Virus record (IMG/VR): IMGVR_UViG_3300043409_002109
Span: 32,001-96,000 of that record
Source of the DNA: a virus
Direction: 5' to 3' (one strand)
DNA length: 64,000 nt
The translations under genes and the position numbers were made by a program. How positions within the stretch are numbered: the first letter of the stretch is position 1; the number at the start of each line of letters is the position of its first letter. Positions 3 to 18,600 of this stretch are shown one piece after another. The notes under the pieces were generated by a model. It worked only from the letters and a program-made list of their open reading frames with translations, had not been told where the DNA came from and made no database searches.

Positions 3-422
3 GGCGCCACTCACGGAGATAAAGAGGATTTAGAGAACGCTCGGATGATGTATCAGGGCGATACCGTGTATGAACATATGAGGAGAGTATGTCTTCGGGC
101 ATTTCCCTCTTACAAAATTGAAGATTTAGATAGGTGGACGAGACCGCTACTTCTACAAAGATTCGTTATAGCCGAACATATGCTTGCGGAGACTGGAGAA
201 TACCAGCCCATTGAACTTAAGAATATTATGACCGCCGAGCAGAAGGCCAAACACCAGAAGAGACAGGAAGCTCCTGGTGGAGGTATCGACTTTGCTCGTG
301 AGAATGCGGGGCTAAGTAAGGAGATGGCGGGGGCTGAAGGCCACGATGTATTCGACTTGCCTCCTGATCAATTCCAAAGGAAAATGAGGATCGCGCAGAG
401 AATGGACAGACAACGTGCTTAG
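3..422 (+). CDS. 5'-partial protein, possible tail assembly chaperone
   Basis: The frame is open from the window edge (GATHGDKEDLENARMM...), so the true start lies upstream. Its position directly before the tape-measure-like gene is the only functional hint. Confidence 0.35.
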   Translation, partial: GATHGDKEDLENARMMYQGDTVYEHMRRVCLRAFPSYKIEDLDRWTRPLLLQRFVIAEHMLAETGEYQPIELKNIMTAEQKAKHQKRQEAPGGGIDFARENAGLSKEMAGAEGHDVFDLPPDQFQRKMRIAQRMDRQRA

Positions 423-434
423 AGGAGATAGCAA

Positions 435-3400
435 ATGGCATTTGAATCTTATAATGCACAAGACATCTGGAGTTCTGGAGAAGCCCCCGGTAGCAGTAGT
501 AATCTACTAGCTGCTGGTAAGCTAGGCCTAGCGGCAGGGGCGGGGATAGGCGGGTTCCACTTATTGACTAAGAACCGCCCAGACGGCACTCGTGCTATCG
601 ATGACGTGTCTGCATTCCTGCGTACTGCTGGAAACCTTTCCCCATTCCAGATCGGGAATACCTTTCGTGTTCCTGAATTCCTATCCCCCTTCACTAGCCC
701 CTCCTATCAGGGCTTAAAAGGCGGGGAGCATGTATTTGAACAGAGCTTTCTGAAGACTTCTGAGACCACTCAGTACCTTCAGAAGGTCACAGGCAAAAGC
801 TATGAGGAGCTTCATGCTTTAGGCTTGAGCCAAGAGGCCCTCCTCGGCAGTGACGCTGCCGATAGTCTTGTCTACCGGGCAGGTAAGACTGGCTCTCGGG
901 GTAGTTTATTCGTAAGACGTAGAGGAGAGGAGTCTCTTCTCTCAGATGCTGTATCTCTCATGAGTAGAGATACAGAGATCGATCCTTTCGTCAGGGGAGC
1001 GAGGGCTGAGAATAAAGCATTTAAGGGCGTCCTTCAAGCCCTTGATATGTGGAAGAATGATAAGTTTGATTCAGAGAGAGTCTTAGCCTCGACAGACAAA
1101 CGATCTGAGGTCGCTTTCATCCCCTCTCTCGACGGACCTATGAAGACGAAGGGGGACTTCCTCCGACGCACTAGCTATGTTCGAGGAGTTGCGGCCTTCG
1201 AAGTCAGCAGATTCAATGACTTGATGGGCAATTATGCTCATCAGATATTTGGAGAAACTGGCGGGAACTTTACAAAGACTGTTCTAGGTATCTCCAACGA
1301 AGTTAGGCCAGGACCAGCAAGTGCCTTACTCGCAAGATATGCAGGTAGGGCGGCCATGCTCGGAGGGGCCGGGCTACTAGTTGCCCAAAGCGACTGGGTA
1401 CGCAGACAAGGGGGACTCCCAGGGCAGGCTGTGGCTGCTGCCGGGACCACTGCAGTGGGTGCATATGCCGCTTGGAAGATGGGGGCGAATAACAAGCTTG
1501 TAATGATGGGAGCCGTAGCAAGCTTCTTCGGGCAGATGACTTTACCCGGATTTGATAAGGGAATCTTCGAAGGAGTGGCTAGTACTGCTGCTGGACTAGA
1601 TGTTTTCAGAGCTAATCCCCTAAACCCATTTGGTTACTATCGTAGAACCTTAGAGGGATTTGCGCCCGGTATCTCTGATTGGAAGACTGGTGCTGTCTTA
1701 GGTCTCGGTGTTATGGCGGCTAGTGGCATGAGAATGCCCGGAACTGGTAAGAGAATTTCTGAACATCTTGTTGAGAAGCTAGGGGCAACAAGGCTCGGGC
1801 TGTCTTCTGGTGCTCTTGGCGTAGCGCCAGATGAACTACTCAGTACAAGAGATATGTTTTGGAGAGAACTAGAGGCTAGCAATAACCCCATAGCACGAAG
1901 CTCTGAAAGATGGCGCACCATGAGCGGGCGCCGGGAGATCTATGGGGAGCTAAAGGGCAGCCGCCCAGAAATACTTTCACAGATGAACAAGCACTGGCGT
2001 TCTGCCGAGGATGCGCATAGAGATATGATGCAGAAATCCTCTGAGCATGGAGCCAATAGGAAGTTGCTAGAAAGTCTCAGCGACATAGCTGATAAGTACA
2101 AGGATGGGAATGGCATTCAGAGGAAGATAATGATGCAAGTCGAAGGCTTTGCCTCTCAGACTTATCATTCTTTCTTCGGTGCTAATGCGAGCTATGACAA
2201 GGCCATGAGGTCTGAAATCCAGAAACTTGGATTTAGCGGAATCACTCCTGTGGGGAAATTCGGACGATTCGCTACACTTGGGCTGGCGGCTTTGGGCATT
2301 CAGCAGCTTGTGACTGGCGGGCTCCTTGGTTCTATGGAGTCTTCTGGAGATCTTAGCGACATCTATGCTGGACGTAAGCTAGTCGAAGTAAAGAAGAGCA
2401 GAGGGTGGGAGTCTGGCTCACAACCTTTTGGAGGTACTGAGACTTCATATTTCCGTCCTCATAGCTTGGCGTTGATGAATGCGCGCACTAGAGAAAGGGG
2501 TATCTGGGGGGAAGACGAGGATGAGATTTCTCCTATCACTAAGTTCTTCAAAAAGAACTTTACCTACGACCTAGAAAGGCAGAACTATTATGACAGGCCT
2601 TATCCTATATCCTCAGCCTTTGGTCAGGATGTCCCTATCATTGGCGGGCTGCTGGCGAGCACTGTTGGGCGAATCATCAAACCAGCTAAGTTAATGCACT
2701 CTGAAGAATGGGCAAGAGAAGGAGAAGGCGGGGCAGAGTTTAAGTCTATCTATAAAGGTAGTCGGCAAGAGCCAGCTTATGCTTTAGGAGCCCAAGGCCC
2801 TGGAACTCCAGTTAGTCCATTCGCTGCGACTGAACAAGCCATGTTTATGTCGGATCAGATGAGACAGCTCTCAGGCTTCCCGGGATTCATAAGAAATACG
2901 CTCCAGAAGATTGTTACTGGGAATCAGAATTTCATGCACAATCAGCCTGTGCTTGCTAGTTCTGGAGAGATGACTAGTCCGAGCAGAATGTTCTGGGAGA
3001 GCGAGCTTGGCGGCGGCTTCTTAACTACTGAGCTTTGGCGACGGCTATTCCCTAGAAATCAGCCGGGTTTACAGAAGGTGAACCCAATCCGAAACAATAT
3101 GCCTTACTGGATGCCAGATAAGTTCCATACTGGAGACCCCTACGCCTCGGTTCAATGGGGCGAAGCGAGACTTCCCGGAGCGGGGTACTCTGCGCTACAC
3201 CCTGAGCTTAATGGTATCGATCCAGAGGAATACCCTCTACTCGCTAGAATGGCGATCTTAGGGGATGTGGCGCCTGCCTCGGTTGAGTATAGGAGAACAC
3301 AAGAACAGGTTTATCTAAAGCGCCAAGAGGGAGGTTACTCCGAGGGCCAAAATAGACTTATTGATCAGATAGATCAACAAGTCGCTCAGCAGATGAACCA

Positions 3401-4472
3401 ATACACCTTTGAAGAACAAGATCCTAGATCTATCAATCTACCTGGAGCCGCTCCTGTTAGAGGGCTGTGGAATGGCGCTTTAACAGGTATCCGCCACCTT
3501 GCCGCGCCGGCTGAATACATGATTCCAATGGGTTTCAGACCTACTCAGAAGTTGATGTCTGACTATAGAGGCCCGATTGAGGCTTACGAACATGAGAGAT
3601 TGTATGGTACCCAAGTAGCTTTCTGGGATAAGCCCATGAGAGACTGGTTCAGACCAGCTGCTTACTCGGCGGCGCATATGATGGGTTATGATGGGAAGCC
3701 CCTTTGGAGAAGGGAAGCTGACGCAGTGGACCAGCGTTTCGATGAAATAGAATTCCATAAGTGGATGACCCTGGCCTTGCAAGCTGAGCAAGCAGGAGAC
3801 TCTGAGGGCAAGAGCCGGTATATGTGGGCAGCGTCAAATACCCGGACCGGTGTGAACCCCCAAGGCTCAGCTTTGAGCATGTACTGGACTCTTCCTGAAT
3901 CTGAAAGAAGTTTCTTCAACTCTTTCTCTGTAGCTCAAGGAGCGGATAGAAGCCGGATTCTAGAAATGGTCCCAGAGGACCAGGCCCATCTTTATCAGGC
4001 TTTATGGTCTAGGTTAGATAGCGGAGATCCCTCCGTTATGGCTGGAGGAGGACAGGGCGTCGATGAAAACTTCTTGCGCACCAAATATTATGGCCAGTCT
4101 AAAGAGGCTATGCCTTCAGAGGACTTCATTGGGTGGCACGAAGAAGTAGACCTCAGTGATATCAAAGTGCGCTATGCAGAACGCTATGCAGCTGATATCT
4201 CTGACTATGGAGTTTGGGAAAGCCAGCTGAAGAAATCAGAGGGACAAGAGTTCCTTGATGGCTCGGAGGGATATATAGGTTCGCCTAATACCATTGCGGC
4301 TCAGCAAATTAAAAGTAAAATATGGAATATGTCGGGCAGTACACAAAATAGACCTGGACTTACTTCGGTCTTTAGTTCTAATATGGGGTCTACAGTTCGT
4401 ATGACTTATAACGATCACAGAGATGGTGATATTTACAGTGTCTTCCAGAAGATGCTAAGCGGCGGCTATTAA
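435..4472 (+). CDS. tape-measure-like / ejected virion protein (1345 aa)
   Basis: AGAGGAG RBS. Gly/Ala-rich helical protein with several hydrophobic segments (GKLGLAAGAGIGGF, AAMLGGAGLLVA, FATLGLAALGIQQLVTGGLLG). Lies upstream of the hub and baseplate genes. Confidence 0.6.
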   Translation: MAFESYNAQDIWSSGEAPGSSSNLLAAGKLGLAAGAGIGGFHLLTKNRPDGTRAIDDVSAFLRTAGNLSPFQIGNTFRVPEFLSPFTSPSYQGLKGGEHVFEQSFLKTSETTQYLQKVTGKSYEELHALGLSQEALLGSDAADSLVYRAGKTGSRGSLFVRRRGEESLLSDAVSLMSRDTEIDPFVRGARAENKAFKGVLQALDMWKNDKFDSERVLASTDKRSEVAFIPSLDGPMKTKGDFLRRTSYVRGVAAFEVSRFNDLMGNYAHQIFGETGGNFTKTVLGISNEVRPGPASALLARYAGRAAMLGGAGLLVAQSDWVRRQGGLPGQAVAAAGTTAVGAYAAWKMGANNKLVMMGAVASFFGQMTLPGFDKGIFEGVASTAAGLDVFRANPLNPFGYYRRTLEGFAPGISDWKTGAVLGLGVMAASGMRMPGTGKRISEHLVEKLGATRLGLSSGALGVAPDELLSTRDMFWRELEASNNPIARSSERWRTMSGRREIYGELKGSRPEILSQMNKHWRSAEDAHRDMMQKSSEHGANRKLLESLSDIADKYKDGNGIQRKIMMQVEGFASQTYHSFFGANASYDKAMRSEIQKLGFSGITPVGKFGRFATLGLAALGIQQLVTGGLLGSMESSGDLSDIYAGRKLVEVKKSRGWESGSQPFGGTETSYFRPHSLALMNARTRERGIWGEDEDEISPITKFFKKNFTYDLERQNYYDRPYPISSAFGQDVPIIGGLLASTVGRIIKPAKLMHSEEWAREGEGGAEFKSIYKGSRQEPAYALGAQGPGTPVSPFAATEQAMFMSDQMRQLSGFPGFIRNTLQKIVTGNQNFMHNQPVLASSGEMTSPSRMFWESELGGGFLTTELWRRLFPRNQPGLQKVNPIRNNMPYWMPDKFHTGDPYASVQWGEARLPGAGYSALHPELNGIDPEEYPLLARMAILGDVAPASVEYRRTQEQVYLKRQEGGYSEGQNRLIDQIDQQVAQQMNQYTFEEQDPRSINLPGAAPVRGLWNGALTGIRHLAAPAEYMIPMGFRPTQKLMSDYRGPIEAYEHERLYGTQVAFWDKPMRDWFRPAAYSAAHMMGYDGKPLWRREADAVDQRFDEIEFHKWMTLALQAEQAGDSEGKSRYMWAASNTRTGVNPQGSALSMYWTLPESERSFFNSFSVAQGADRSRILEMVPEDQAHLYQALWSRLDSGDPSVMAGGGQGVDENFLRTKYYGQSKEAMPSEDFIGWHEEVDLSDIKVRYAERYAADISDYGVWESQLKKSEGQEFLDGSEGYIGSPNTIAAQQIKSKIWNMSGSTQNRPGLTSVFSSNMGSTVRMTYNDHRDGDIYSVFQKMLSGGY

Positions 4473-7400
4473 TGAATTTCTTGAGCAAGCTTAATGAAGA
4501 TAAAGATAAGGTCCCAGGCATTCTAGCTGGTGTTGCGGGTACGCTTCCTATTGCTTTAGCTGTAAATTATTCCTGGCGGAAAATGCAGTCTAATCAGCCT
4601 ATTTCCGCTTCCCAGATATTAGGTAATAGAAGCCCTCTTGGTGACATGGGCAGAGATATAGGGAAGGGCCTTCACGAGAGCTATGCTAAAGACAATAAGG
4701 CTGTAGATAAGATCACTGAGAAGCTCCTGAAAAGTGATGAGCTAGCCAAGATAATGGAGAAGAAGGACCAGCGGGCAGCGATTGTACAATCTATCTTGAC
4801 TACGATAGAAGATCAGAGCACTGGGCTGAATAGTGAAACTTTAGCGAAGACTAAAGAGCAACTAATGAAGATCGTCGCAGATGATGCGGACTCTCCAGAG
4901 GCTAGAGAGATTGTGAAGGCGGCTCTTACTAGTATTCAGGAAAGTGGTAGCGACCTAACACAACAGAGGTTCGCAAACCGTTTTAGAGAATTCAAGAAAC
5001 AGGGAGGTGGCCTTGTCGCTCCAGTAGCTGAGTTCAGAAGCACTCAGGCTCTGAATGTTATTAAACATGCTACGATGAAGGATCGTAGCGCTGTGCTTAA
5101 GCTCGTAGGAGGTGATGCTGGGCGTGCAGATTTCCTTCAAAGTCAGTACACCCGCATCGCTGATAGGGTTGGGAAGAAAGATCTAGAGACTGCTCTTCAG
5201 ATTGTAGAGATGGACAGTGGCATGGGACAACGAACTCTTATGGCTAGGGTCTATTCTGGAAAGAAAAAGCAATTTGCATTTCAAGTGAACCTCCTAGCAA
5301 ATGCTACTGGAGTTGATGCCCCCACTCTATACCCAATGGGAGAGAATGGGGCTACTAGGTATTTCGGCCCCGTAGGTGTTGTTGACGCAGGCGATGTTGA
5401 GAAACTGAATGCCACTCGAAAGAATAAGTGGGGACTAGAGCACCTCAGGGGTCGCTTAAAGAGGGTTGAGGCTCGCGAAATGGATATAGCCCTAAGCCTT
5501 TTAGAGAGTGACCAATTCGGTGTTCGCATGACTCAAGCGGCACGCACTGCATATAATGAGCAGCGGGCCGAGATTTTAGAGCCTGCTAGTCGTGTACTCT
5601 CTCCGGGCATGGAAAGGAGGAACAGGGGCAAGACCGCGGCTGCCTATCGCGAGCACCAGATGAGGCAGGCACGCATTACTCAGAATAAAATTGTTGTGAG
5701 TGGTCTTTTTGGTAAAGACGAAGCGGCAAAGGAAGCCTTGGCTAAAGGTGCCTTCTCTGTTGATCCCAGTGTGCTAGATAAGTTTGAGGCTGGGGAGACG
5801 AGAGTTTCCGCTCCCGTAGACGGCCGGCAGTACTTGAATCTTCAGCTTCAAAAAGACTCTGCCTTCACGGGATTCCGGGCCGGTGCTTCTGCTAATAGAA
5901 TATCTTTGCCTGTTATTGCCCGAATAGAGCAAGCTGTTGGTCGTAACGGTATGTACATATCAAGGGAGAGCGTCCCCCGGAAGATGGGAAGGCTCTCTAG
6001 GTATGACGTAGGGGCTGGCGGTGCGCCCATCGGTTGGCGAGAGCAGCACCAAGGGGGAGTTAACAGATTCGGCCTCTTCGATGCCACTGGCGGGCGCGGA
6101 AGAGGCTTCCTGGCTAAGAGCGAAGGCTCTGGTATGGCTTGGGCTCCCGGAGGTCTGGGAACATTAATGAATGACAGAACTATACCCATTCTAGATGCGA
6201 AAGAACACAACATGCTTACGACCGACTTTATGGCTCATCTTGAAGAAGAGTTTAAAGCTGGTAGAGAAATGAGTACTTATGACGTTATGGACAATGGTAA
6301 GCTAAGACATGCTACCACTGGACAGGAGTGGGATCGATGGTTAGGCCAGGGCTCAAGCGGAAATAGAGCTATCCACCTTGACCCTCAGACGAAGAGGTTC
6401 CAGATTGGCATTGCTGAGAAGAATGAGACTGGAGGCAAGAAGCAGATAAACCTAGCTATTGTGTCGGAAAGAAACATGGAGAGTGGAAAGGTCTTCGCTC
6501 CTGCCCTGAAAGCAACTCATGCTGTACCTGAACAAGGGTTCGAGGGTCGCCTAGCAAGAGACTACAAGTTAGGCACAGAGTTCTTCGCACGTCATGGTAT
6601 AAAGCTGACGGATACGATAGCTGCCTCTGGAGACCAGTACAAGAAGGCTCCTCTGTTTTTGGCAAGCCAACTTACGAGCGCTCTTGGAGCACTCGATAAC
6701 TCTGTTGATCCATTTGATTTTGTCGAAGACAGCGTTAAGGGTTATAAGGGGGACTCTCCTTTCGGAGGAAAAGATGTTGGTAAGGTAGCAGATATTGTGA
6801 TGGGTAGATTAGCCAAGGGGCATCGGGCTGGCCGGATTCATTCTCAGGATGTGGGGGCGGCGCTGGGCTTGCTCTATCAGGGCAGTGGATTAGCGAGACT
6901 GCACGACCCTAAAGGGGAGAATAGTGCCGATCCGTTGTGGCAGAGGGGAGGGAAGGAGAGCTATAAGCTTGATCCCGAGGCCCTAGAGAAGAGAATGATT
7001 CATCATTTTGGTGAAGATGCTTATAGGAATGAGCTTCTCCCACAGATGAAGACAGGACTTGCTATTCAGCCTTTGACTCTGTTTCCCGGTGAAGCCCATG
7101 GCGATTGGGGGCTCGGGAGAGGCTCGATAGAGCCACGTTTCTTGGAGTTAACCTCTGGGAAGCTAAGAGAAGCCGGTATGAATAATGCCGACGTTTCTGA
7201 GTTCATGGTAAGAGTGCTGAAGAGAAAAATTGGAGGAGAAGAGGGATTGAAGCTCGTCGCCCCCTTAGAACGGATGCAAGCTTCAGTTCTCAACAGGACT
7301 ATGCCCGGAGCAACCGGAGGTCCGACCTTTACTCTAGATCAGCTGATTGACGAGATGACAAAGCTAGGGCAGAAGACTAAAGGTAAAGGTAATTTTTCTG

Positions 7401-9688
7401 ATTTCCTCGCGACTCAGAAGGATGGCATTACTTTAGACCTGAGTGACACATCGAATAAAGCTAAAGCCGCGATCTCGCACGCCGCTGGAGAGCAGCTAGA
7501 GGGCCAGAGGTCTATCTACATGGCAGGTGGAGACGCTATGGAATTCATGAGAGGTACTGAGATTAAACAGGCTGCTGGTGAGTCTATTAAGATAGGCTCA
7601 GACTATGACAGGACAGTTAACCATTTTATTGAAGACCTTTTAAAAATGCGTACTAATGATGAGGAAGCGGCTAGATCTGCTTCCAAATCTATGCTTGAGT
7701 ATAGGAAGAATATAACTACTTTATTCTCAACTGCGTTGGTTGGCACCGCTAGAGGTAAAATAAAGGGTGCTTCATTCAGCGTAGCAGAAACATTGTTTGA
7801 TGACTTAGCTTTGACTCCTGAACAGTTCAAGTTAGCTGATCAACTTGATAGTGGTGCTAAAGGCCAAGCAGTCTTTAGAGATACTGCATCCTTCATGTCC
7901 TCCTTATCAGACTGGATGGGGAATGACAAAGGCAAGCTGGCTAGAATGTATTTTACTGGAGCAGAGAGAGCTGCAGCAACCGGCAAGATGAGTACTGGTA
8001 TATGGGGTCTGAGCACCAGAAACCCTCAGCTATTTAGACGTAGCACGAACATCACTCAAGCTTTCAGGGATCCTAGACAAGTGGCAAGAGGTGAGGCAGA
8101 CGTAGCATTCTCAAGAATCAAGAAGTATCTTCCTGGAGCTTTAGAGGAGTTGAGTAGGAAGACACAAACTGAGATAGGCGGATTCAAAGACATTGCTCTC
8201 CTAGACGATAAGGCCCATGGGAACGCTATAAATAGATTCTTCGATACTATCGCTGATCGACAGTCAGACTGGTGGCAGTCTGAGGGCGGTGGTACAGACT
8301 CGTATCTCAGAAGGGAACATGATGTCGTGATTACTGACAGTAAGGGTAATTCGCCAAAAACAATCAGGAAGGTAGACTTTGGTTTCCAAGGTGCAGCATA
8401 TCAGGACAATGACGGTGATCAGCCTCAGAATATGATTCTTGATGAAGAAGATCGAGTCAAACTCAACAAGGCATTTAAAGATAAGGAGCGAGCTGCAAAG
8501 TATTTTGCTACCGATTCACAAGGTATTGCTCAGCAGAAGATTGCTGACCACTACCTTAAGATAGGAATGGGCGGCGAGTCAGTTAGTCTCGACAGTGAGG
8601 CCCCTCCTGAGTTGCGTCAGATGAGTGAAGACTTCTTAAAGGAAAAAGCTCAAGATAGAAGTACTGGTAAGGTCAACAACGCAGTAGATAGGTTGCGTAG
8701 AGCTTTGCTTAATAATGTCGCAGGCAATGAAGATAACATCAACGAGGCAATGGCCTTTATCAACACCCTGCCAGAGCAGACTACTATCAAGTCAAAGCAG
8801 AGAACCAACTACGAAGCTCTAGCTGAAATGCTCTCTCGGGCTATTGGCGCTACGTATGATGGAGATAGCGATGCCTTACCTAATCTTTTCAAAACGACTC
8901 TATATCCTCAAGATAAGATGCCCGAGTTATATGAGGGCGTGAAGTACTCCATTCAAGGACGAAACCTGCCCAACAATGTGCAGGGTGCAGTCGGCGAAGT
9001 GAACCTAACAAGAGTTCTGGATACTATAATGCACTCAGTCCAAAACCATATTGCGATTGGTGGTGGAGAGATGGATACTCTTGGAGGCTTAACTCGGGGC
9101 CTGATGGGATCTCAGGCTGGTGTTAACTTCGATAGATATCTTGAGGGTAAGAGTGGAGTCCAGGCTGGTATTGCGGCCGGTGGAGGAAGAGGTGCCGCTC
9201 AGGATGCGGTGATTGCTGCCGAAGGTGCATTCGCAAGAGTCCGAGCAGCGGCAGGGAAAATAGACGGTAGGATGGCGGGAATAGCCACTCTAGGGCTTGG
9301 GGCAGGAGCAGCTATACTAGGCATGGCCGGGGCAGACGGGTATGACTCAGAGCCCCTAATGGCTCCTGGTGACATGCCAAGTTCTTATGTGCAGAAGGAG
9401 ATTAGCTCCTTTAACCTCCTTGATAATTCCTCTGCACGAGAGCAAGGTTCCCCTATGTCCGACCCCTATGATATGATGAACACACCTATTAATACTGGCA
9501 CCGCCTACATGAATAGACCAAATGGGTATAATATTCGTGGAGAAATTGGTAGTATGGGTGGAGTCGGTCAAGTAGGGGGTTATGTTAATAATCTAACTCG
9601 TGGTTTCGGACGAGGCTCTATTATGGTAAATGATACCAGACGACCGATAACCAGTTCCTACGTAGATCGAATGGCAGGAGAATACTAA
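4472..9688 (+). CDS. putative single-chain two-barrel (DPBB) DNA-dependent RNA polymerase, likely virion-associated (1738 aa)
   Basis: Ordered motifs: SEGSG (E551), GKVFAPALK (K673/K680), TRNPQLFRRS..TQAF (R1183), AAYQDNDGDQ (D1312-D1316), TGKVNN (~1398), EQTTIKSK (~1435). Compare beta' NRAPTLHRLGIQAF...AAYNADFDGDQ. Confidence 0.72.
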   Translation: MNFLSKLNEDKDKVPGILAGVAGTLPIALAVNYSWRKMQSNQPISASQILGNRSPLGDMGRDIGKGLHESYAKDNKAVDKITEKLLKSDELAKIMEKKDQRAAIVQSILTTIEDQSTGLNSETLAKTKEQLMKIVADDADSPEAREIVKAALTSIQESGSDLTQQRFANRFREFKKQGGGLVAPVAEFRSTQALNVIKHATMKDRSAVLKLVGGDAGRADFLQSQYTRIADRVGKKDLETALQIVEMDSGMGQRTLMARVYSGKKKQFAFQVNLLANATGVDAPTLYPMGENGATRYFGPVGVVDAGDVEKLNATRKNKWGLEHLRGRLKRVEAREMDIALSLLESDQFGVRMTQAARTAYNEQRAEILEPASRVLSPGMERRNRGKTAAAYREHQMRQARITQNKIVVSGLFGKDEAAKEALAKGAFSVDPSVLDKFEAGETRVSAPVDGRQYLNLQLQKDSAFTGFRAGASANRISLPVIARIEQAVGRNGMYISRESVPRKMGRLSRYDVGAGGAPIGWREQHQGGVNRFGLFDATGGRGRGFLAKSEGSGMAWAPGGLGTLMNDRTIPILDAKEHNMLTTDFMAHLEEEFKAGREMSTYDVMDNGKLRHATTGQEWDRWLGQGSSGNRAIHLDPQTKRFQIGIAEKNETGGKKQINLAIVSERNMESGKVFAPALKATHAVPEQGFEGRLARDYKLGTEFFARHGIKLTDTIAASGDQYKKAPLFLASQLTSALGALDNSVDPFDFVEDSVKGYKGDSPFGGKDVGKVADIVMGRLAKGHRAGRIHSQDVGAALGLLYQGSGLARLHDPKGENSADPLWQRGGKESYKLDPEALEKRMIHHFGEDAYRNELLPQMKTGLAIQPLTLFPGEAHGDWGLGRGSIEPRFLELTSGKLREAGMNNADVSEFMVRVLKRKIGGEEGLKLVAPLERMQASVLNRTMPGATGGPTFTLDQLIDEMTKLGQKTKGKGNFSDFLATQKDGITLDLSDTSNKAKAAISHAAGEQLEGQRSIYMAGGDAMEFMRGTEIKQAAGESIKIGSDYDRTVNHFIEDLLKMRTNDEEAARSASKSMLEYRKNITTLFSTALVGTARGKIKGASFSVAETLFDDLALTPEQFKLADQLDSGAKGQAVFRDTASFMSSLSDWMGNDKGKLARMYFTGAERAAATGKMSTGIWGLSTRNPQLFRRSTNITQAFRDPRQVARGEADVAFSRIKKYLPGALEELSRKTQTEIGGFKDIALLDDKAHGNAINRFFDTIADRQSDWWQSEGGGTDSYLRREHDVVITDSKGNSPKTIRKVDFGFQGAAYQDNDGDQPQNMILDEEDRVKLNKAFKDKERAAKYFATDSQGIAQQKIADHYLKIGMGGESVSLDSEAPPELRQMSEDFLKEKAQDRSTGKVNNAVDRLRRALLNNVAGNEDNINEAMAFINTLPEQTTIKSKQRTNYEALAEMLSRAIGATYDGDSDALPNLFKTTLYPQDKMPELYEGVKYSIQGRNLPNNVQGAVGEVNLTRVLDTIMHSVQNHIAIGGGEMDTLGGLTRGLMGSQAGVNFDRYLEGKSGVQAGIAAGGGRGAAQDAVIAAEGAFARVRAAAGKIDGRMAGIATLGLGAGAAILGMAGADGYDSEPLMAPGDMPSSYVQKEISSFNLLDNSSAREQGSPMSDPYDMMNTPINTGTAYMNRPNGYNIRGEIGSMGGVGQVGGYVNNLTRGFGRGSIMVNDTRRPITSSYVDRMAGEY

Positions 9689-9689
9689 A

Positions 9690-12600
9690 TTGATTTCTGA
9701 TCTTGCGAGCCCCCTTACCGCACCTGACATTGATCTCGTTCAAAGAAAAGAGATCTTTGTTATAAATGATATTGCCTTAGTGGTTCCTCCCACTTCTATC
9801 TCTGTGCAGAAGGAGGATATGACTTACACCTGGCGCACGCTGCGTACCAGAACAAGTACGAAGGTTCCTACCGGGCATGGTAATATAAATGTCGGGCTTT
9901 CTTTGGTCTTCTTAGAAGATCGTATGTTCGACCTTCATCGTTTAATCGTCCAGTTACGCTCAAGCCCTTTCTGTTATGTTGAGAATCGTTATCTACGGGA
10001 AACTATTATCCCTGAGTTTAACCTCTATCAGGCTATGGCCTTCTGTGTAGATGCTATCCAGATATCTCCTTTACCGGGAACCTCTGATGCTTGGTTGTGT
10101 CAGCTCTCTTTGAGTTGGTTCAACTATCTCCCCTATACTGCTAACTTTATGTTCAGAGAAGATTGGGAAACAGAGTGGCTTGATAGCGGGGGCACTGGCG
10201 GAGGCCAGGCTATTAAGCAGAGCATAGGCTGGAAGTGGAATAAAGAAACTGGTAAGCGAGAGTTCACTCCATCAACTACCTCTCGACGCGAAGCTGAAGG
10301 AACGAATGTAAAGGAGTGGAACCTTCAGCAAGAGGGGTATGCGGATAAGGCCAATCGCACTCTGTTCGACATGGAAGCCTTGCACCTGGGGCAAGAGTTT
10401 GACATGCTTCCCTTGCCGGGAAATATGGCTCCCTCTCAGATAGCTTTAGACCCTCGTAATAGCAGAATCTATGTGCGCTATATTAACTTACTCCAGAGGG
10501 ATGCTCTTTGGGATAATTTTGAGATAGATATTGAGCGCTTGCTGACCGATGCGCAGATACCACTAGAAGGATTCTTCGGAGTTCACGAAGAGCCTGATGG
10601 GAGTAAGCAGACTTGGGGTCTGCATTCGGGACCTACCTCCTCGAATGAGGAGCACCGAAAGGCATGGTATGGAGTGATGAGAAAGGTTACAAGAGACATG
10701 CTTTCTTACAATGGCAAGATCTCTTTAGTCTTTCAGACCTACCAGACACTCGACATGCCTAATGAATGGAGCAAGGCTTTAGGTCGGCTCTCTGCTGTTG
10801 TCAGGAAGGAGTTTAACCCAGGCGCTAGCGAGACGAACCCGCTCTATCAAGGTGATTGGGTCACAATTCATAAGTATAGTAATAATATGACGCAGGCTAT
10901 CAGGAAGCATCCTAAGAGGACGGGACTTACCAATCCTAATGGCTTCAGATCTCCTCTTGGGGCGCCAGATAGAAGATTCAGTATTAATGAACTACGGAAC
11001 GGAGTCTCTTCACGGATATGTGAGAGAAGCCCCGAGAAAGATGTAGAGCTTGGGTACCCCCCCACGGGGAGGAACGAAGGCAGAGTTCACTGGGGAACGG
11101 ACTTCGGGACCGGTAAACAAGAAGGTTGGAAAGTTTACGCCTGTCGGCCTGGGAGAGTCACTGGTGTGAACTACGGATCCGTGGATGCCAGCAAAGTCGT
11201 GTGGAAATCTTTCCGTGAAACGGATGGGAAAATCTCCCAGATAGAGGGCGGCAAACTGTATGAGGCATGGCTAAGGACCATGACTGACGCCCTCGGAGCT
11301 TCTTCTGTAGCGAAGAGCAAGAAGGTCGTGTCCCTTGCCGGTACTGCTCTCCAGCAGTACCAGAAGTTCGGGACTATAATCCAAGATGTGACTTATCCAG
11401 AGATCTACTATTTCACAGACTTAACGAGTGAAGGTGGAAACTGGATTCGAATAGAGCATAACACTGGAGGCGAGCCAGGTGTCGGGAGTTGTGATGGCGA
11501 CATCTCGGTGTATATGCATCTTCGAGAAATATTCGTAAAGGTCGGAGATATCATAGGTGGCGCGGAGGGGAACCCAGGACATGATATCGATCAACCAATT
11601 GGCATTGTAGGGCAAACTTCTACCCTTAGTCCGAAGTATATAGATTGGTTCGTAAAGAATAAGACTCGTGGCGCCCAAAGGGGTGGGCCGGCCGCCGGCC
11701 GCCACGCAGACTGGGAGAAGGGAAAGTTCCAGCAGCTAAAACCTTTTGAGTATCAAGAGATTGTCTCTGAGTTGCGGCAGTCTGGGATTCCAGATCGTAA
11801 GAATAAAGGCGGATTCACACTCCCTATCCACCTCCACTTTGAGTACTGGGAGAAGGAAGGCAACGGTGCTCCGCTTGATCGATCTGTAGATCCTTATGTG
11901 TTCAAGGATTTCTCGAACACTCCAATGGTCAAGGAAGGCTATGTAATGGTTGACCCAGTTCCTTCCTTCGAGGCCGGGTCTCAGGGTATGGAGGGTAAGG
12001 AGAACTACGTCCTCTGGATAGACAATACAGCCGCTATTGCGAAGATCTCTGCCGCTATCGTAGCCAAGGAGATAAAGAAGGATAACGGAGAGAGCTATGA
12101 GGTAGATACGGCGAAGCTCGAAGATATGATAGAGAAGATGGAGGAGCTATCTAGTCAAGGATGGTACCATTACGAGGGGGCTATGAAGCTCCCTAACGTC
12201 TGGTATAAAACTTGGATTCTCAACTACCGACATGGAAACAAAGACGAGCTTAGAGACCCTAACGTTCTCCAGAACTTTTTTAATAGCACTGATAGTGCCT
12301 ATACAGATCTGAGCACAGTTTTCACTGGGGTAAGTGGCGGGTTTACGAACATTGTTGCGCGCATTCCCATCCTCTCATATGAGTACCCGACTCTTCAGCA
12401 TCTTGGTTCTATAGAGCCTCACTACACTTTTGAGTTTACCCTATTGGATGATCGGTTTGACGAAGAGGGCGGCAAGGGTCTCCACGGTATACCTTCTAGT
12501 GGCCAGCTCTTAGAGGGTATGAGAAGTATACTCCAGAGAAATGCCCGTAAATACAGGGAAGTCAAAGATAGTTGGAGCTTAGCTACAGATACTTTTATGA

Positions 12601-15600
12601 CTAGGTTACTTGGTTCTTTCCGGGTGAGAGATGCCATCTTCAATAACACTACAACAGGTGTTGTCAATCAGGTAACTTTATTGAAGAGAACGATTATAGA
12701 ACGCTCTGACAATGGGACTGTAGAAGGTAGCCCAGGGCTGTCCTATCTATCCTTCGAGATGAGCGAGACGAACCCCTATGATGAAGAAGAATTTGTTAAT
12801 ATCAACCCTGCATTCTTTGACGTAGAGACTGCGAGGAAGGAGGCTCTGCAGGCTCTCTATAAGCTAGATATCGCTGGAGAGTTCAAGGACAGTGTTCTGC
12901 CTATTCTTATCGGGAGTCTGGCGAACAGAAATATTCTAGATCCCAATAACGAGGAGGGGTATGGCCAGTTTAGCGTTGATAGCACTAGTGATTTAGCCTA
13001 TGCCCTAGGAGGGAGCCAGAAAGTTATACTTTATCGGGGTGATGATCCCGAATTTAAAAAGGGTTTAGGCTTTCAGGACAGCTTCGTTATCCAAGATCCA
13101 GGCGGGGTCTACGAGAGGCTGCTGCGTAATGAGTTAGAAGGAGACTTCGATAAAAGTGTTACTATTAGAAATGGCTTGCTTCTCGTAAACGCTAATGAAG
13201 GAGACTACGGGGAGCCAGAGTTTTCGACCCCGTATATCGCTGAAGACTACGGAACTTTTGACGAGGGCGCCGTTTCAAACGAAACGAGGAAGCCTAGAGC
13301 TTCCTTCGATATCTCCCGGATATTAGAGTCTTCATCAGATCTCGCTCAGCTTTCTAAGTTGAACTTGCCTAAAATCGCTGACTATTGGCAGCTTCTAGAT
13401 GCAGTGCTTAAGAGTGCAGAGATATCTCTGGCTGAGGAAAAAACTCTTGTCAGTCCCAGGAGTTCGCTCTCCTACCAGACGGGAGGACTTAGCAAGGAAA
13501 GGGTACAGGCAGAGCTTTATGATCTTCCGGTAACGCCCTCCATGTGGAGACTTTGGCAGTATTACCAGATAGCTGCAGGGGCAAAGTGGATCGTAACCGC
13601 GAACAAAGTTCCTAGTGCTGGCTGGAAAACTGATATTCTCCTAGGTCCCGTTGAAAAAATGTTCTTCGCTTCTGTTACGCAAGAGAATGAATTTGATGCG
13701 ACTGGTGAGGCAGCTTTTACTGTATTGAAGAGTAACGCGGGTTGGCTTACTTGGAGCGAAGTAACGTCGGAGGCTCTTTCTCCTGAATTACTTAAGAAAG
13801 CTACTGATACACATCTTTCTTTTGGTACAGACATCTTAACCTTCGGTGGGATTGGCTTGGATAGCTTGGGCGTTGGTGCGACTCTTATTATCGATCAGGG
13901 TCGTGATGGTTGGGCTCAGGTAACTGGGGCGAAGAAAGCAGAGGATACCAAGTGGATGGGGACCTTTCTCCGAGGCGGCACTTTGGCAGCAGAAGAGAAG
14001 CTCACTGAGATATACCTTCGGCATATGTATCCTAGCAATGCCGTCTGGCTGACTGACCTCGCTAAATATTATGCGAAAGATACTCTTTTCTCTCCTATTG
14101 TTGCATTGATTAATGGGAATGAGGGGCCTCTCGCCTCGGTCCATGCCCAGCTGCAAGAGAACTTGCACAGCTGCGGGTATTGGAGCTTTGGTTTTTCAGA
14201 CAGTGCGATAGGGAAAGCTTTCGGGGCTGGGTACCCCCGCTTTACTGTGCGCAAGGAGGATTTCAAAACAACTGCCGATGGCCTCCTCTACTACGATAAT
14301 ACTTCAGGAGAGAGAACTCCATCAGGAGTTTCGGGCATAAAAGATTATGACTCTAGCTTTATCTGGCCTGTCTCTGAAGATGTTGAAATAAAGAAGCTAA
14401 GAGAATTTAAAAGCGCCCTCGCACGTCTCGCCGATGACATACTCTCTGATCCAAAGATTCTAACTGCTTTAGGTTTACAGAGATATATAAACATATTGGC
14501 GTCTCAAAAGACTATCAAGGGTACAGAGTGTTATCCTGATTTACAACTTCCTGAGCATCCTTATTACGGCGATACGAAGGATGTCTCTCCAGATTTTTAC
14601 TTCTGGAATATGTATGATGACGGACAGGCTTTTGCCCCAGAAGTTATCGAACGTATTCGGACTTCAGCCGATCACATTGTATCCAACTGTTATGAGTCAC
14701 TTCGGGTGATGCAGGGCCGGAATGATAAGGCTAATGAAATGCCTTATACAAATACTAGTATCTCTGATCAACAGATTATTACTCCATTCAGATATAATGC
14801 TGAAGCTACTGACGGTAATAGTCCCAACCCATCCAATGTCGGGCCTACTGATATCCCTTGGTATGAAAATGATGCAGCAGCAGATGCTGTAGCGAAGTTC
14901 AATGGAACTATAAAAACTGCTGGGGAGAAAAGCATTAAGGATGCCAATCAGGTTAGCGCGACTCCTCGGAGAGCGTTAAAGGTGAACAAGGCGGAAATTT
15001 CTGCTATCAACCCACCCTCTGCTTCTATGTCGGTTACCGAGGGGCAGATAGATACTGGAGATAGCAAGAACTTTAAGGGTGGCTTGCATTACCCTATGCG
15101 AGTGACCCCCGAGAAGTACACAGAACTGAGGAACCACCTTCTCTCTTCGCGGCCGATGTTTGGTAACAAAGCAGCTTACTTAGGAAAGCAATTCGAAGAG
15201 AATGCCCCTGCTCCAGAGGTAGCTCAAGTTCGGGGAACAGCGCTCCAGACGCCCCTTCAGTACACGCATTTATTCGATGAATCTTCCCTAAAACAGCTTG
15301 CTTTCGACTCTAGTAGAGATATCGTTTCTCAGAAAGTAACTATGAGGAGAGCATTCCCGACCTTCAAGCTCTTCTTTATTGAAGAAGATGAAATCGAAGA
15401 TCATCTTATCGCATATGATGATTTCCATTCTTATAATGCTGTGAAAGAATTCTCAGTAGTCCAAAGCCGCAAGATTGCGGCCGACGTAGCGATCATCACT
15501 CTACAGAACGTTTCGGGTACGCTAGATGCTACCCGCAGAGATGCTATTGCTGACGTTGACTACTTCACGAAGAAGCCTAAGAGCAAAGATAAGAACCAAA

Positions 15601-18600
15601 GCACCACCAGCGGAGAGGCCGTAGCCGAGGGCACTGATAATGAGCAGCCTTTCCAGGCTGTGCTCCTACGTCCTGGTATGAACATACAGCTTCGTAGCGG
15701 TTATAGTAACGACCCCAGAAATCTTCATGTAATGATTTCTGGTAGAGTAGTGGACATAACTTGGAATAAAGTCGGGGATATGGCCGAGATAATGGTCCAG
15801 GGATTTGGCGTTGAACTCCAGCAAGCCTACAAGGGCACAGAAGGGGATGGAACCATCTACTACACCACCCATCATCTGCTCGGAGCGATGATGCTACAGC
15901 CTGAACTAGTCCATTTTGGGAGGTGGGAACGTGGACAATTATTCCAAGAGGGAGAGTCTCAAGACTCTAGGTTGGACTTCTATGATTATTCTAGAGAAGG
16001 ATTCATGGGAAGATTCTCTATGACGACAGCGATCACTTCTTGGCTAGCGGCGCATCCTATTATTACTATTGTAGGTATGCTCGGTCTCGGTGCTCTGAAC
16101 CTATATACCCCGGGCGCAGGGAAGCTCACTGCTGGAGCAGCAAAACCCGGGTTTCTTTCTAGAGTCTTTAGCTCTTTAGCTAGAGTAGGAGAGAAGCCTA
16201 CGGTCCTTAAGGCGACAGAATATGCCACGACAGGAGCTTTTAGAAAGATTCTTCCTGAAGCGATTGAAGCAGAGCTAAAGACAGCCGGTGGGTGGAAAGG
16301 ACTAAGTGATGCTTCTAAAATCGCTGTGGTCAAACTGATATTGGGAAAGCAAAGAGAAGCCTACCGACTTCTGAAGTCAACTTCGAGCTGGACCCTAGCC
16401 CATAGCAAGGAGGCTACTCGTTTAAGAAAGATAACTCATGAAGCTATCGCAAAAGCAGAGACTATTGAAGATGTTCTGGCAGCAGGAGCCTCCCATGTGA
16501 GAGGCTTGAATTACACTCTCCTAAAGGGAGGTATGTTAGGGAACCCAGCCTACTCGCTACTCACTAGCCCTCTTGGCTTCTTGGGTTGGCACCAGGTGAA
16601 AACCATGAGTTCATTTGGAATAAGGTCTTATTTAGTCGGTACTGGAAAGGTCGCTGGAGGAGCATTACTAACCGGTTTAGTATTGGATGCTCTTGGGGTA
16701 CCTATTCGAGCGGCTTATGACGCAACTGCCGGCAGAATCCAAAGATGGTTCTCGACTGCTCAAGTCTCTCTAATGATCAGCCCTCAAGATGACAACTTAT
16801 TCTGTCCTCACCCTAAAGACTATATGGATATGTCAGAAAAGAGCTATACACAGGTATTTGAAGAGTGGCTTACAGTTAGTGCCGGAGATCTTGTTGCCGG
16901 CACTAACCAAGGTTATAAGTTCTCTAGGTGGCTTCACTTGGAGACGATCTTTGATAAGAGAGTCCTTCCTCAGTCTTGTCAGTATCAAATAGATACTTCT
17001 ACTATCTGGGATATTTTCCATGAGATGTCTTTACGTCATCCTGGCTGGATCTATGGGGTACGGCCCTACGGCCATGCATTCAGGAATACGATGTTCTTCG
17101 GCGTTCCCAGTCAGCGCTATTGGTCAAAGCCTGCAAGTAATGAATTCATCCAGCGTGTTAACACCCTCAGCAGATTTCTTGCGAATGACGAAATAGATGA
17201 AACAGAATATGAATTGTTATACGGTGATAATATAGATGGGAAAACTATAGCCGAGTATAAAGAACAACTCACCTTCTCTGCTAGGCTTAAGCTTCAGACT
17301 CACTCTTCTGAATCCCCGCCAGTAGGGGTCGTCTATGGTCCGCAGACTAAAGCTGAAGCAGAGCTGAATCCCCCACCAGCCTACGACCCTAGAGTAGAGA
17401 AGGAAGTTCAAGCCCAATTAAAGGCGCGACTATCGGCCCCGGCCATCAAGGAGTACCTACGAGGTCTTGAGTTAAGGTTCGTCCCTTTCCGGAATCACCA
17501 TATGGTGAGTAGTACTCGTGATCTCATTTGGAATGGGATAATGAGTAGTGAAAATGCAGCTTATAATGCTGTGTCTGTAACTTATTTTGATGAGACTTCA
17601 GGAGCGAGCAAGTCTTCAGAGACTACGACAGAGATATTCAAGGCTCATTCATTTATACCTGAGCATATGGTTCGAGTTCTACCCCTCCCGGTATATAGGA
17701 ATTGTATTAGCTATCCAATGGCTATTAGATACGCCATGGGAACGCTAATGGATACAATGAAAGATATGTACCGGGGTGAGATTATTGTTACTGGGAACCC
17801 TAGACTGCGGCCCTATGATATCTGCATTCTTACTGATGACTATAACGATATGGTTGGTCCAATAGAAATAGAGCAGGTTGTTCATACTTTCTCTCATGAG
17901 ACTGGGTTCATTACAGAAATTAAGCCTTCAGCAGTTGTCATAGCAAACGAGATTAGTTCGTGGCCTCTGATAGAGGCGGCTAAGCTTTGGACCTTAGCGG
18001 TAAGAGATATAGAAGCTAAGTACGCAATAGGGCCAGGTCAAACTGGCCTGATGGGAGATATTGCCAGTGTGTTGGCTTCGACTCTCAGTGAAGCTGATTC
18101 AAAAACTTTAGAGAAGAAATATCAAACTATGTATGGTGGTGAGATACCATTCATACAAGACCTGGCTGAAGATAAGGCTCTCTCTGAATCGCTAGAAGCT
18201 TGGGATAAAGATATCGCTCTTGCTGTTGCTGGAATGAGAACGGCGAGCGTTGGGATCCTTGGAGGTACTGCCGCTGCTGCGGCGCTGGTAGGAGCCGGAA
18301 TAGCTGCGAGAGTGCCTGGTGGGAGGATCCTAGGTTCAATTGGTCTTCTTGGCGCGGTACCTCTCGCCCTCACTGCCGGAGCTTTACACATTGCCCTGCA
18401 GACTCCTCCGAGCTTGAAGATGCTCATAGGTGGGACTGTACTCTTCGCCCAGATGGCAAGAGAAGAATCTATTATTCTTGTTCCTTTGATGAAGAATGGG
18501 CAGCCCATTGTCTCTGGATTGAATATCCAAGATCCTTCTATGATGTGGACCCACTTCAAGGGGAACTTGAGGCGTATGGTGTCAGACATAACTGAGGGCA

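What the first reader, a model, noticed from the sequence alone, without database searches (positions are those of the whole stretch)
4380..9688. Tape-measure-like protein and putative RNAP share a C-terminal signature
Seen: the 1345-aa protein ends ...STVRMTYNDHRDGDIYSVFQKMLSGGY and the 1738-aa protein ends ...GSIMVNDTRRPITSSYVDRMAGEY. Both show beta-strand, NDxR, about 9 residues, (K/R)M..GxY at the C-terminus. Inference: a shared hub-docking or packaging signal, suggesting the RNAP is loaded and ejected by the same route as the tape measure, possibly unfolded inside the tail tube.
Basis: partly seen in the sequence, partly recalled or inferred. Interest (0 to 1): 0.7.

Follow-up and report, generated by a model that had tools for sequence, protein, structure and literature searches.

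The report
Shared tail-anchor ending on two giants
Two neighbouring giant tail proteins of an uncultured contractile-tailed phage, one of which hides a cell-type RNA polymerase, end in the same conserved ~70-residue piece, most likely a common anchor that loads both into the tail for injection.

Summary
Both C-termini read as quoted. The core (strand, N-D-x-R, about 16 residues to the end) is conserved in both families: R 100% and D 93% of 107 relatives of the 1345-aa protein, D 100% and R 96% of 113 relatives of the 1738-aa protein. Profile comparison aligns the last ~67 columns of both, co-terminally (hhalign E 3.8e-6, score 30.3; reversed and shuffled controls at most 16.5).

The 1738-aa protein is very probably a single-chain two-barrel RNA polymerase. 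A confident model (pLDDT 80.5) matches QDE-1, RDR2, Rpb1/beta-prime, crAss gp66 and P23-45 gp96. K673, K680, R1183, P1185 and D1312-x-DGD are invariant.

By synteny with Bacillus phage 0305phi8-36, the polymerase protein itself sits in the tape-measure slot (gp146). The 1345-aa protein is the gp145 family, a virion protein of unknown fold. So the labels are partly swapped.

Hub docking is an inference from known tape-measure C-termini and was not tested. The closest precedent is the tape-fused virion polymerase of Thermus phage P23-45. This scan already noted a similar pair in another genome (e1-5684265).

The parts
3..422 (+). C-terminal part of a 228-aa ORF (genome 31736-32422), the last of the small ORFs between the tube genes and the giants. 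It is the positional counterpart of the 0305phi8-36 tail chaperonins gp143/gp144.
   Evidence: ORF map; 0305phi8-36 order; same order in relatives. The assignment is positional only: no PHROG hit.
435..4472 (+). Slot-1 giant, 1345 aa (P0001). It belongs to the gp145 family of 0305phi8-36-like myoviruses. The core at residues ~630-1260 is strongly conserved and its fold is unknown.
   Evidence: more than 100 relatives, some with inteins; gp145 is a virion protein by MS; conservation; no Pfam, PHROG or PDB sequence match.
4254..4469 (+). C-terminal module of the slot-1 protein (residues 1274-1345), including the strand, N-D-H-R at 1326-1329 and the terminal GGY.
4470..4474 (+). TAATG overlap of the slot-1 stop codon and the slot-2 start codon (translational coupling).
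   Evidence: The same tight junction (-8 to +1 nt) is seen in relatives.
4472..9688 (+). Slot-2 giant, 1738 aa (P0002). It is the positional counterpart of the 0305phi8-36 'hypothetical tape measure' gp146 and carries an embedded two-barrel RNA polymerase.
   Evidence: 208 representative clusters; synteny.
4511..4567 (+). N-terminal Gly/Ala-rich hydrophobic helix (residues 14-32).
6149..9247 (+). Predicted RNA polymerase core (residues 560-1592).
   Evidence: pLDDT 80.5, pTM 0.76; model residues 1-1033 confident. (QDE-1 Z 9.7, RDR2 9.2, Rpo147 7.7, Rpb1 7.5, P74-26 gp62 7.4, gp66 5.6, gp96 5.5).
6488..6511 (+). K673 and K680 (KVFAPALK), the invariant basic pair in the first beta-rich barrel (DPBB-B-like).
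   Evidence: That part of the model aligns with the DPBB-B side of QDE-1, gp96 and gp66 (ranges only).
8018..8026 (+). R1183-N-P1185, the invariant RxP strand of the beta-prime-like barrel.
8405..8419 (+). D1312-N-D-G-D1316, the invariant metal-binding loop.
9272..9328 (+). Gly/Ala-rich hydrophobic helix (residues 1601-1619) between the polymerase core and the C-terminal module.
   Evidence: The region has low model confidence.
9488..9685 (+). C-terminal module of the slot-2 protein (residues 1673-1738), including the strand, N-D-T-R at 1720-1723, RPIT and the terminal GEY.
   Evidence: It is unstructured in the monomer model.
9690..18734 (+). 3014-aa baseplate hub fusion with weak M23-peptidase signals and several hydrophobic helices. 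It is the candidate docking partner.
   Evidence: It is the positional counterpart of the gp147 hub. W- and J-like baseplate genes follow it.

Best explanation
The window carries the tail module of a ~150-kb myovirus of the 0305phi8-36 lineage. After the sheath, tube and chaperone-like genes come two translationally coupled giants and then a giant hub.

The first giant (1345 aa) belongs to the gp145 family. The second (1738 aa) sits in the tape-measure slot. It consists of an N-terminal ~560 residues beginning with a hydrophobic helix, a ~1030-residue single-chain two-barrel RNA polymerase, a second hydrophobic helix and a C-terminal module.

Both giants end in a homologous ~65-70-residue module: a loosely conserved stretch, a beta-strand, N-D-x-R, then a ~15-residue helix-like tail that often ends G-x-Y.

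I propose that this module is the common anchor by which both proteins are fixed at the hub/spike end of the tail lumen during tail assembly. Tape-measure C-termini are fixed in this way in phages 80alpha and T5 and in diffocin. Both proteins would then be built into the tail, probably in equal numbers, and expelled first on contraction. The hydrophobic helices would enter the membrane and the polymerase would reach the incoming DNA.

Shown: the module, its conservation and homology, the polymerase fold and motifs, and the synteny.
Inferred: docking to the hub, residence in the lumen, ejection and polymerase activity.
For: - Module homology: hhalign E 3.8e-6 over 67 co-terminal columns, against controls of at most 16.5. 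It is the only notable similarity between the full-length profiles.
- D and R are invariant in 12 paired sequences from 6 phages. They are 93-100% conserved in about 110 members of each family.
- The pattern persists in distant clades: 62-67% of the giants against 2.4% of other ORFs in 79 loci. It is also seen in cultured relatives (gp145, gp146, MTATph1, Edson, KLEB27-3). The polymerase-family module profile hits the gp146 C-terminus (E 2e-4).
- Hardies et al. found that only the last 60 residues of gp146 align with its BtI1/BwK1 counterpart (PMC2147016).
- gp145 and gp146 are virion proteins by mass spectrometry.
- Tape-measure C-termini are anchored on the spike or hub in solved structures (PMC11329794).
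- The module is disordered in the monomer model, as expected for a piece that folds on a partner.
- The gene junctions are tightly coupled in all relatives examined.
- Polymerase identity rests.
- There is a precedent for a tape-fused virion polymerase (PMC10770324).
- It is the only DxDGD protein in the genome and lies in a late structural operon.
Against: - No partner was identified and no complex could be modelled.
- The hub is expected to be trimeric, so two proteins with the same anchor must either share three sites or use six. This is unresolved.
- A folded ~115-kDa polymerase core should not fit a tail-tube lumen, the same puzzle as in P23-45.
- In some clades one giant has lost the D-x-R pattern while the other keeps it (15 + 3 of 56 pairs). 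The two ends are therefore not strictly co-dependent.
- Virion presence is known only for distant counterparts, and gp146 shows no detectable similarity to this polymerase outside the C-terminus.
- The module profile found no third family and no classical tape measure carrying it (gp96 negative).
Confidence: 0.5

Rival explanations
1. The module is the recognition site for the tail assembly chaperones, the two or three small proteins encoded just upstream (counterparts of gp143/gp144). The chaperones would hold both giants in an extended state while the tube polymerises. The module would not be a hub anchor.
For: - Chaperone-like ORFs directly precede the giants in every relative.
- The lineage has a split two-gene chaperonin (PMC2147016), which could match two clients.
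Against: In lambda-like systems the chaperones coat the tape measure along its length rather than at a terminal peptide (my own knowledge, not tested here). The strict co-terminal position fits an end-anchoring role better.
Confidence: 0.15
2. The two modules bind each other. They would form a hetero-oligomer, for example a 3+3 ring, that joins the two giants into one heteromeric tape. Any contact with the hub would be secondary.
For: - Homologous modules on two translationally coupled neighbours.
- Both trimeric and sixfold tape-measure assemblies are reported (PMC11329794).
Against: - The motif is lost in one partner while the other keeps it in 18 of 56 pairs.
- Covariation of the terminal residues is weak.
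- The N-terminal ends show no profile similarity here.
Confidence: 0.15
3. The similarity is only a relic of an old duplication of a tape-measure gene. The C-terminus is kept in each copy for separate reasons, and the polymerase protein is a non-virion enzyme that happens to be encoded in the tail operon.
For: - No experimental data exist for this clade.
- 0305phi8-36 has a separate YonO-like polymerase, and its gp146 lacks DxDxD (PMC7824862).
Against: - The C-terminal D and R are among the very few invariant residues of the polymerase protein, alongside the catalytic residues. This argues for strong, shared selection.
- The protein has hydrophobic helices at both ends and occupies the slot of a protein found in virions.
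- A polymerase made only late, with no other phage polymerase in the genome, makes most sense if it is packaged.
Confidence: 0.1
4. The module acts after ejection. As the first part to leave the tube, it would insert into or bind a host envelope component to start channel formation.
For: - In tape measures the C-terminus points to the tail tip and leaves first (PMC11329794).
- A hydrophobic helix lies just upstream of the module in the polymerase protein.
Against: - The module itself is polar.
- No hydrophobic helix precedes it in the 1345-aa protein.
- This role is not exclusive of hub docking.
Confidence: 0.1

Closest known systems
Thermus phage P23-45 gp96, a tape measure protein with a fused virion two-barrel RNA polymerase (Chaban et al. 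2024, PMC10770324; PDB 8h2m, 8h2n)
   Same: Both are single-chain two-barrel polymerases with RxP...DxDGD inside the giant protein of the tape-measure slot, presumed to be delivered through the tail. The structures match weakly: Z 5.5, 273 residues aligned.
   Different: - gp96 belongs to a siphovirus, has 5002 residues and carries the polymerase at the N-terminus, followed by a long tape with a metallopeptidase.
- Here the phage is a myovirus, the protein has 1738 residues, and the polymerase fills the middle and most of the length.
- There is no sequence similarity beyond the motifs.
- The gp96 C-terminus does not match the module.
- gp96 has no partner protein with the same ending.
Bacillus phage 0305phi8-36 gp145 (virion structural protein) and gp146 (hypothetical tape measure protein), followed by hub gp147 (Hardies et al. 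2007, PMC2147016)
   Same: - Same gene order.
- gp145 is a sequence homolog of the 1345-aa protein.
- The gp146 C-terminus matches the module profile.
- Both end with a strand plus D-x-R-type motif.
- Both were detected in virions.
   Different: - gp146 has no DxDxD and no detectable similarity to the polymerase core.
- That phage has a separate YonO-like polymerase (PMC7824862).
- The sharing of the ending between gp145 and gp146 was not found described in the passages of that paper I searched.
Tape-measure C-termini anchored in the hub or spike (phages 80alpha and T5; diffocin CD1366; PMC11329794)
   Same: A short C-terminal piece at the distal end of the tail lumen holds the protein to the spike or hub. 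It is the best conserved part of an otherwise fast-evolving protein.
   Different: Those systems have one tape-measure species forming a homotrimer. Here two different giants carry homologous endings. No sequence relation to those termini was tested, because their sequences were not at hand.
QDE-1 / RDR / YonO / crAss gp66 clade of single-chain two-barrel polymerases
   Same: These are the best structural matches: QDE-1 Z 9.7, RDR2 Z 9.2, gp66 Z 5.6. Both barrels lie in one chain.
   Different: - No sequence-level match to any Pfam or PDB family.
- A ~400-residue helical connector lies between the barrels.
- Extra terminal regions carry hydrophobic helices and the shared module.

Membership tests
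Two-barrel (DPBB) RNA polymerases | Beta-prime-like barrel with an RxP strand and a DxDxD metal loop | tested here: met
   R1183, P1185 and D1312-x-D-G-D1316 are invariant in 52 diverse members. That part of the model (residues 534-798) matches DPBB domains and the PhiKZ/AR9 polymerase cores.
Two-barrel (DPBB) RNA polymerases | Second barrel supplying two conserved basic residues | tested here: met
   K673 and K680 are invariant. They lie in the beta-rich model residues 1-125, which fall in the ranges aligned to QDE-1, gp96 and gp66 upstream of their catalytic barrels. The ranges were seen, not a residue-by-residue superposition.
Two-barrel (DPBB) RNA polymerases | Overall fold match to solved polymerases | tested here: met
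   The model has pLDDT 80.5. The nine best VIA matches are all polymerases, Z 7.2-9.7 with 261-376 residues aligned. Foldseek against PDB gave only weak rows (E at least 0.13), though many were beta-prime/Rpb1 chains.
Two-barrel (DPBB) RNA polymerases | Template-dependent RNA synthesis | not testable with these tools
   Needs a biochemical assay.
Tail tape measure proteins | Gene between the tail chaperones and the hub | tested here: met
   Both giants lie there. The 1738-aa protein is the direct neighbour of the hub, like gp146.
Tail tape measure proteins | Long, mostly helical, fast-evolving chain whose length sets the tail length | tested here: inconclusive
   - The tail length is unknown.
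- The 1738-aa protein is mostly a globular polymerase in the model. Family length varies from 1640 to 3265 aa through one insertion site.
- The 1345-aa protein has a tightly conserved core and a narrow length range.
Tail tape measure proteins | Presence in the virion, inside the tube, with the C-terminus at the hub | not testable with these tools
   There is only indirect evidence: gp145 and gp146 are virion proteins by mass spectrometry.
Tape-fused virion RNA polymerase of P23-45 type | Homology to the gp96 polymerase | tested here: inconclusive
   VIA Z 5.1-5.5 to 8h2m and 8h2n. hhalign is not significant, though its three best hits are colinear.
Tape-fused virion RNA polymerase of P23-45 type | Polymerase at the N-terminus of a very long tape with a metallopeptidase | tested here: not met
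   The polymerase occupies residues 560-1592 of 1738. There is no peptidase in this protein; the weak M23 signals are in the next gene.

The most novel reading that the evidence does not exclude
In a large, mostly uncultured group of contractile-tailed phages the tail lumen holds two different giant proteins, docked side by side at the hub through paralogous C-terminal modules (for example 3+3). One of them is a complete RNA polymerase that doubles as the length ruler, its ruler segment being a variable insertion inside the catalytic barrel. This would be a heteromeric, enzyme-bearing tape measure, an arrangement not described for any tail.
Probability: 0.25. Interest if true: 0.8.

Novelty: new variant of a known kind. 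Interest (0 to 1): 0.6.

Why it matters
How large enzymes are loaded into phage tails and delivered into cells is largely unknown. The one studied case, P23-45, left the loading mechanism open. A short, conserved and transferable ending shared by a polymerase-bearing protein and its neighbour gives a concrete handle to mutate, to use in pull-downs and to look for in cryo-EM maps. It would also help annotate two giant gene families, hundreds of metagenomic members each, that no library recognises. It further suggests that the 'tape measure' of this lineage may be a two-protein device. Cultured relatives exist for the tests: Acinetobacter phage ME3 and Bacillus phages Edson, WH1, KLEB27-3 and 0305phi8-36.

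Tried and rejected
- Direct BLASTP of the two proteins shows nothing. The similarity is visible only with family profiles.
- Pfam and PHROGs gave no hit for either giant.
- PDB sequence profiles gave no meaningful hit.
- The ESM Atlas gave no usable lead.
- The first fold, with 6 sequences, was unusable (pLDDT 45) and was discarded.
- Foldseek against PDB gave no significant row.
- A mixed module profile searched against longer proteins found only the two families. That search is word-limited, so this is weak evidence that no other family has the module.
Both proteins do start with a polar leader and a Gly/Ala-rich hydrophobic helix.
- The gp96 C-terminus does not match the module.
- Covariation of the last residue between partners is weak and confounded by relatedness.
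- One large alignment call failed, and one contig look-up had to be repeated.
Full report
**What is there.** The window is bases 32001-96000 of a single 150,205-bp contig. Its left part is a myovirus tail module on the + strand. Upstream in the genome lie a 778-aa sheath-sized ORF, a 218-aa tube-sized ORF and four ORFs of 228-265 aa. Then come three giants: 435-4472 (1345 aa), 4472-9688 (1738 aa) and 9690-18734 (3014 aa). They are followed by small ORFs and baseplate W/gp25-like and J/gp6-like genes. Replication genes lie on the other strand further right.

**The observation.** A direct BLASTP of the two proteins shows nothing, so a single pair could have been chance. Three tests say it is not.

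1. In the whole genome, [NDSH]D.R lying 8-30 residues from a C-terminus occurs in only 3 of 562 six-frame ORFs. Two of the three are these neighbours.
2. Both families conserve the motif.
   - The 1345-aa protein has more than 100 relatives. The 1738-aa protein has 7 by word-based search and 208 representative clusters by profile search.
   - In the last 80 residues, N-D-x-R reads N 72%, D 93%, R 100% in 107 relatives of the first protein, and N 76%, D 100%, R 96% in 113 relatives of the second. Both have alternating hydrophobic residues before it and 15-16 residues after it.
   - The terminal G-x-Y is only about half conserved.
3. Profile-profile comparison of the last 80 residues gives Prob 87%, E 3.8e-6 over 67 columns, ending together.
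   - The score is 30.3. Controls gave 9.9 for a reversed alignment, at most 16.5 for 20 column shuffles, and 7-9 for N- versus C-terminal cross comparisons.
   - With full-length profiles the only notable hit is again C-terminus to C-terminus: P 0.0077, with the next best at 0.27.

In an alignment of the paired endings from six phages, D and R are the only invariant columns.

**Breadth.** A scan of IMG/VR with the conserved core of the first giant returned 79 loci. I read the two giants in each.
- A pattern of hydrophobic-x-hydrophobic-x(1-2)-[DN]xR lying 10-22 residues from the end occurs in 43/69 slot-1 proteins, 37/55 slot-2 proteins and 14/575 other ORFs of the same loci.
- Of 56 complete pairs, both have [DN]xR in 33, only slot-2 in 15, only slot-1 in 3 and neither in 5.

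Cultured relatives show the same picture:
- 0305phi8-36 gp145 ends ...NMNIAHDRRDDVQKIINRDGHYML, and gp146 carries ...NANISDDRS... 28 residues from its end.
- The slot-1 proteins of MTATph1, Edson and KLEB27-3 end with a strand plus DR[ST]E.
- The polymerase-family module profile hits the gp146 C-terminus (residues 2456-2526, E 2e-4).

**What the two proteins are: the 1738-aa protein.** Across 52 diverse members only twelve columns are invariant. They are K673, K680, R889, R1183, P1185, D1312, D1314, G1315, D1316, E1435, and D1721 and R1723 of the C-terminal motif. An RxP strand, a DxDGD loop and a basic pair are the hallmarks of two-barrel polymerases, as summarised in PMC7824862.

A first model built from six sequences was useless (pLDDT 45). 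With 52 sequences the model reached pLDDT 80.5 and pTM 0.76. It is confident for residues 560-1592 and disordered for 1593-1738.

Foldseek found nothing significant in PDB, though many weak rows were beta-prime/Rpb1 chains. The exhaustive VIA search gave these matches:

| Match | Z |
|---|---|
| QDE-1 (314 residues aligned) | 9.7 |
| Maize RDR2 | 9.2 |
| Vaccinia Rpo147 | 7.7 |
| Pol II Rpb1 | 7.5 |
| P74-26 gp62 | 7.4 |
| Archaeal, Pol I, Pol III, mycobacterial, ASFV, AR9 and PhiKZ polymerases | 6.5-7.3 |
| crAss phi14:2 gp66 | 5.6 |
| P23-45 gp96 | 5.5 |
| Isolated DPBB domains | 5.2-5.6 |

Each Z is modest. The consistency of the list, together with the invariant residues, makes a polymerase core very likely.

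In BFVD the model matches a protein of Acinetobacter phage ME3 (E 8e-8). ME3 gene 36, in the same slot, carries REP...GGDHDQD. The slot-2 proteins of Edson and KLEB27-3 carry NRYPTIN...AD[HY]DGD. In IMG/VR, 53 of 56 slot-2 proteins have [RK]xP...DxDxD.

No other ORF of this genome has DxDGD.

**What the two proteins are: the 1345-aa protein.** It is a homolog of 0305phi8-36 gp145 and ME3 gene 35. Its residues ~630-1260 are strongly conserved. Homologs carry inteins at four or more different sites. It has no Pfam, PHROG or PDB sequence match.

**Which one is the tape measure.** In 0305phi8-36 the order is chaperonins gp143/gp144, gp145, gp146, hub gp147. gp146 was assigned as the tape measure from the tail length. 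Only its last 60 residues aligned with the BtI1/BwK1 counterpart (PMC2147016). gp145 and gp146 were both found in virions by mass spectrometry.

By position the polymerase protein is therefore the tape-slot protein, and the 1345-aa protein is the extra conserved virion protein.

The known precedent is P23-45 gp96, a 5002-residue tape measure whose N-terminal 1200 residues are an active virion polymerase (PMC10770324). The list of polymerase-bearing viruses in that paper contains none of ME3, Acinetobacter, Metrivirus, MaMV or 0305phi8.

**How it most likely works.** In solved tails and tailocins the tape-measure C-terminus is anchored on the spike or hub, and the last 20-35 residues are the part seen in maps (PMC11329794).

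Several features here fit a common end-anchor used in tail assembly:
- the strict co-terminal position of the module;
- its disorder in the monomer model;
- its conservation on a par with the catalytic residues;
- its presence on both translationally coupled giants (TAATG at 4470-4474; junctions of -8 to +1 nt in relatives).

The most probable site is the hub. Both proteins have Gly/Ala-rich hydrophobic helices, as tape measures and ejection proteins often do. The hub has several such helices plus weak M23-peptidase signals.

I therefore read the three giants as one envelope-crossing set. The polymerase, made late and alone of its kind in the genome, would be carried in for the next infection.

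Not shown: the partner, the stoichiometry, residence in the lumen, the folding state, ejection and enzyme activity. The rival readings are a chaperone-binding site, a module-to-module heteromer, a duplication relic with a non-virion enzyme, and a post-ejection role. Each is listed with its test.

**Earlier notes of this scan.** Several follow-ups on other genomes reached the same reading of a polymerase in the tape slot. One noted a pair of giants sharing signatures at both ends (e1-5684265). I confirm the C-terminal sharing here independently. I did not find significant N-terminal profile similarity.

**Verdict.** This is a new variant of a known kind: tape-measure end-anchoring and a tape-associated virion polymerase, here with two different giants sharing the anchor.

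Noticed in passing
window 435-4472 (homologs P0011, P0013, P0061, P0063, P0065, P0088): Homologs of the 1345-aa protein carry inteins at four or more different sites (after residues 659, 815, 863 and 1235), some with two inteins. This is unusual for a virion structural protein and points to a very conserved, perhaps enzymatic, core.
   Followed up: partly
window 8027-8404 (between RxP and DNDGD); P0229, P0231, P0232, P0248: Long members of the polymerase family (2650-3265 aa) have 950-1400 extra residues inserted exactly between the RxP strand and the DxDGD loop of the catalytic barrel. This protein has an insert of only ~85 residues there. The length variation of the tape-slot protein is concentrated at this one site.
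   Followed up: partly
L012-L090 (IMG/VR loci), slot-2 proteins: Distant clades replace DxDGD by DKDAD, DFDKD, DFDDD, DFDAD or DYDAD. ME3 gene 36 has DHDQD. 0305phi8-36 gp146 has no DxDxD at all, and that phage has a separate YonO-like polymerase.
   Followed up: partly
window 9690-18734: The 3014-aa hub starts with TTG, one base after the polymerase gene's stop codon. It has only weak M23-peptidase signals (Pfam E 0.062), matches to PHROG 'endolysin' families in its C-terminal part, and about six hydrophobic helices.
   Followed up: no
window 4511-4567 and 9272-9328: The polymerase core is bracketed by two Gly/Ala-rich hydrophobic helices (residues 14-32 and 1601-1619).
   Followed up: partly
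BFVD hit A0A075BUT7_2: The polymerase model also matches a large uncharacterised protein of Microcystis phage MaMV-DC (E 3.5e-5). The tail-slot polymerase may therefore extend to Ma-LMM01-like cyanophages.
   Followed up: no
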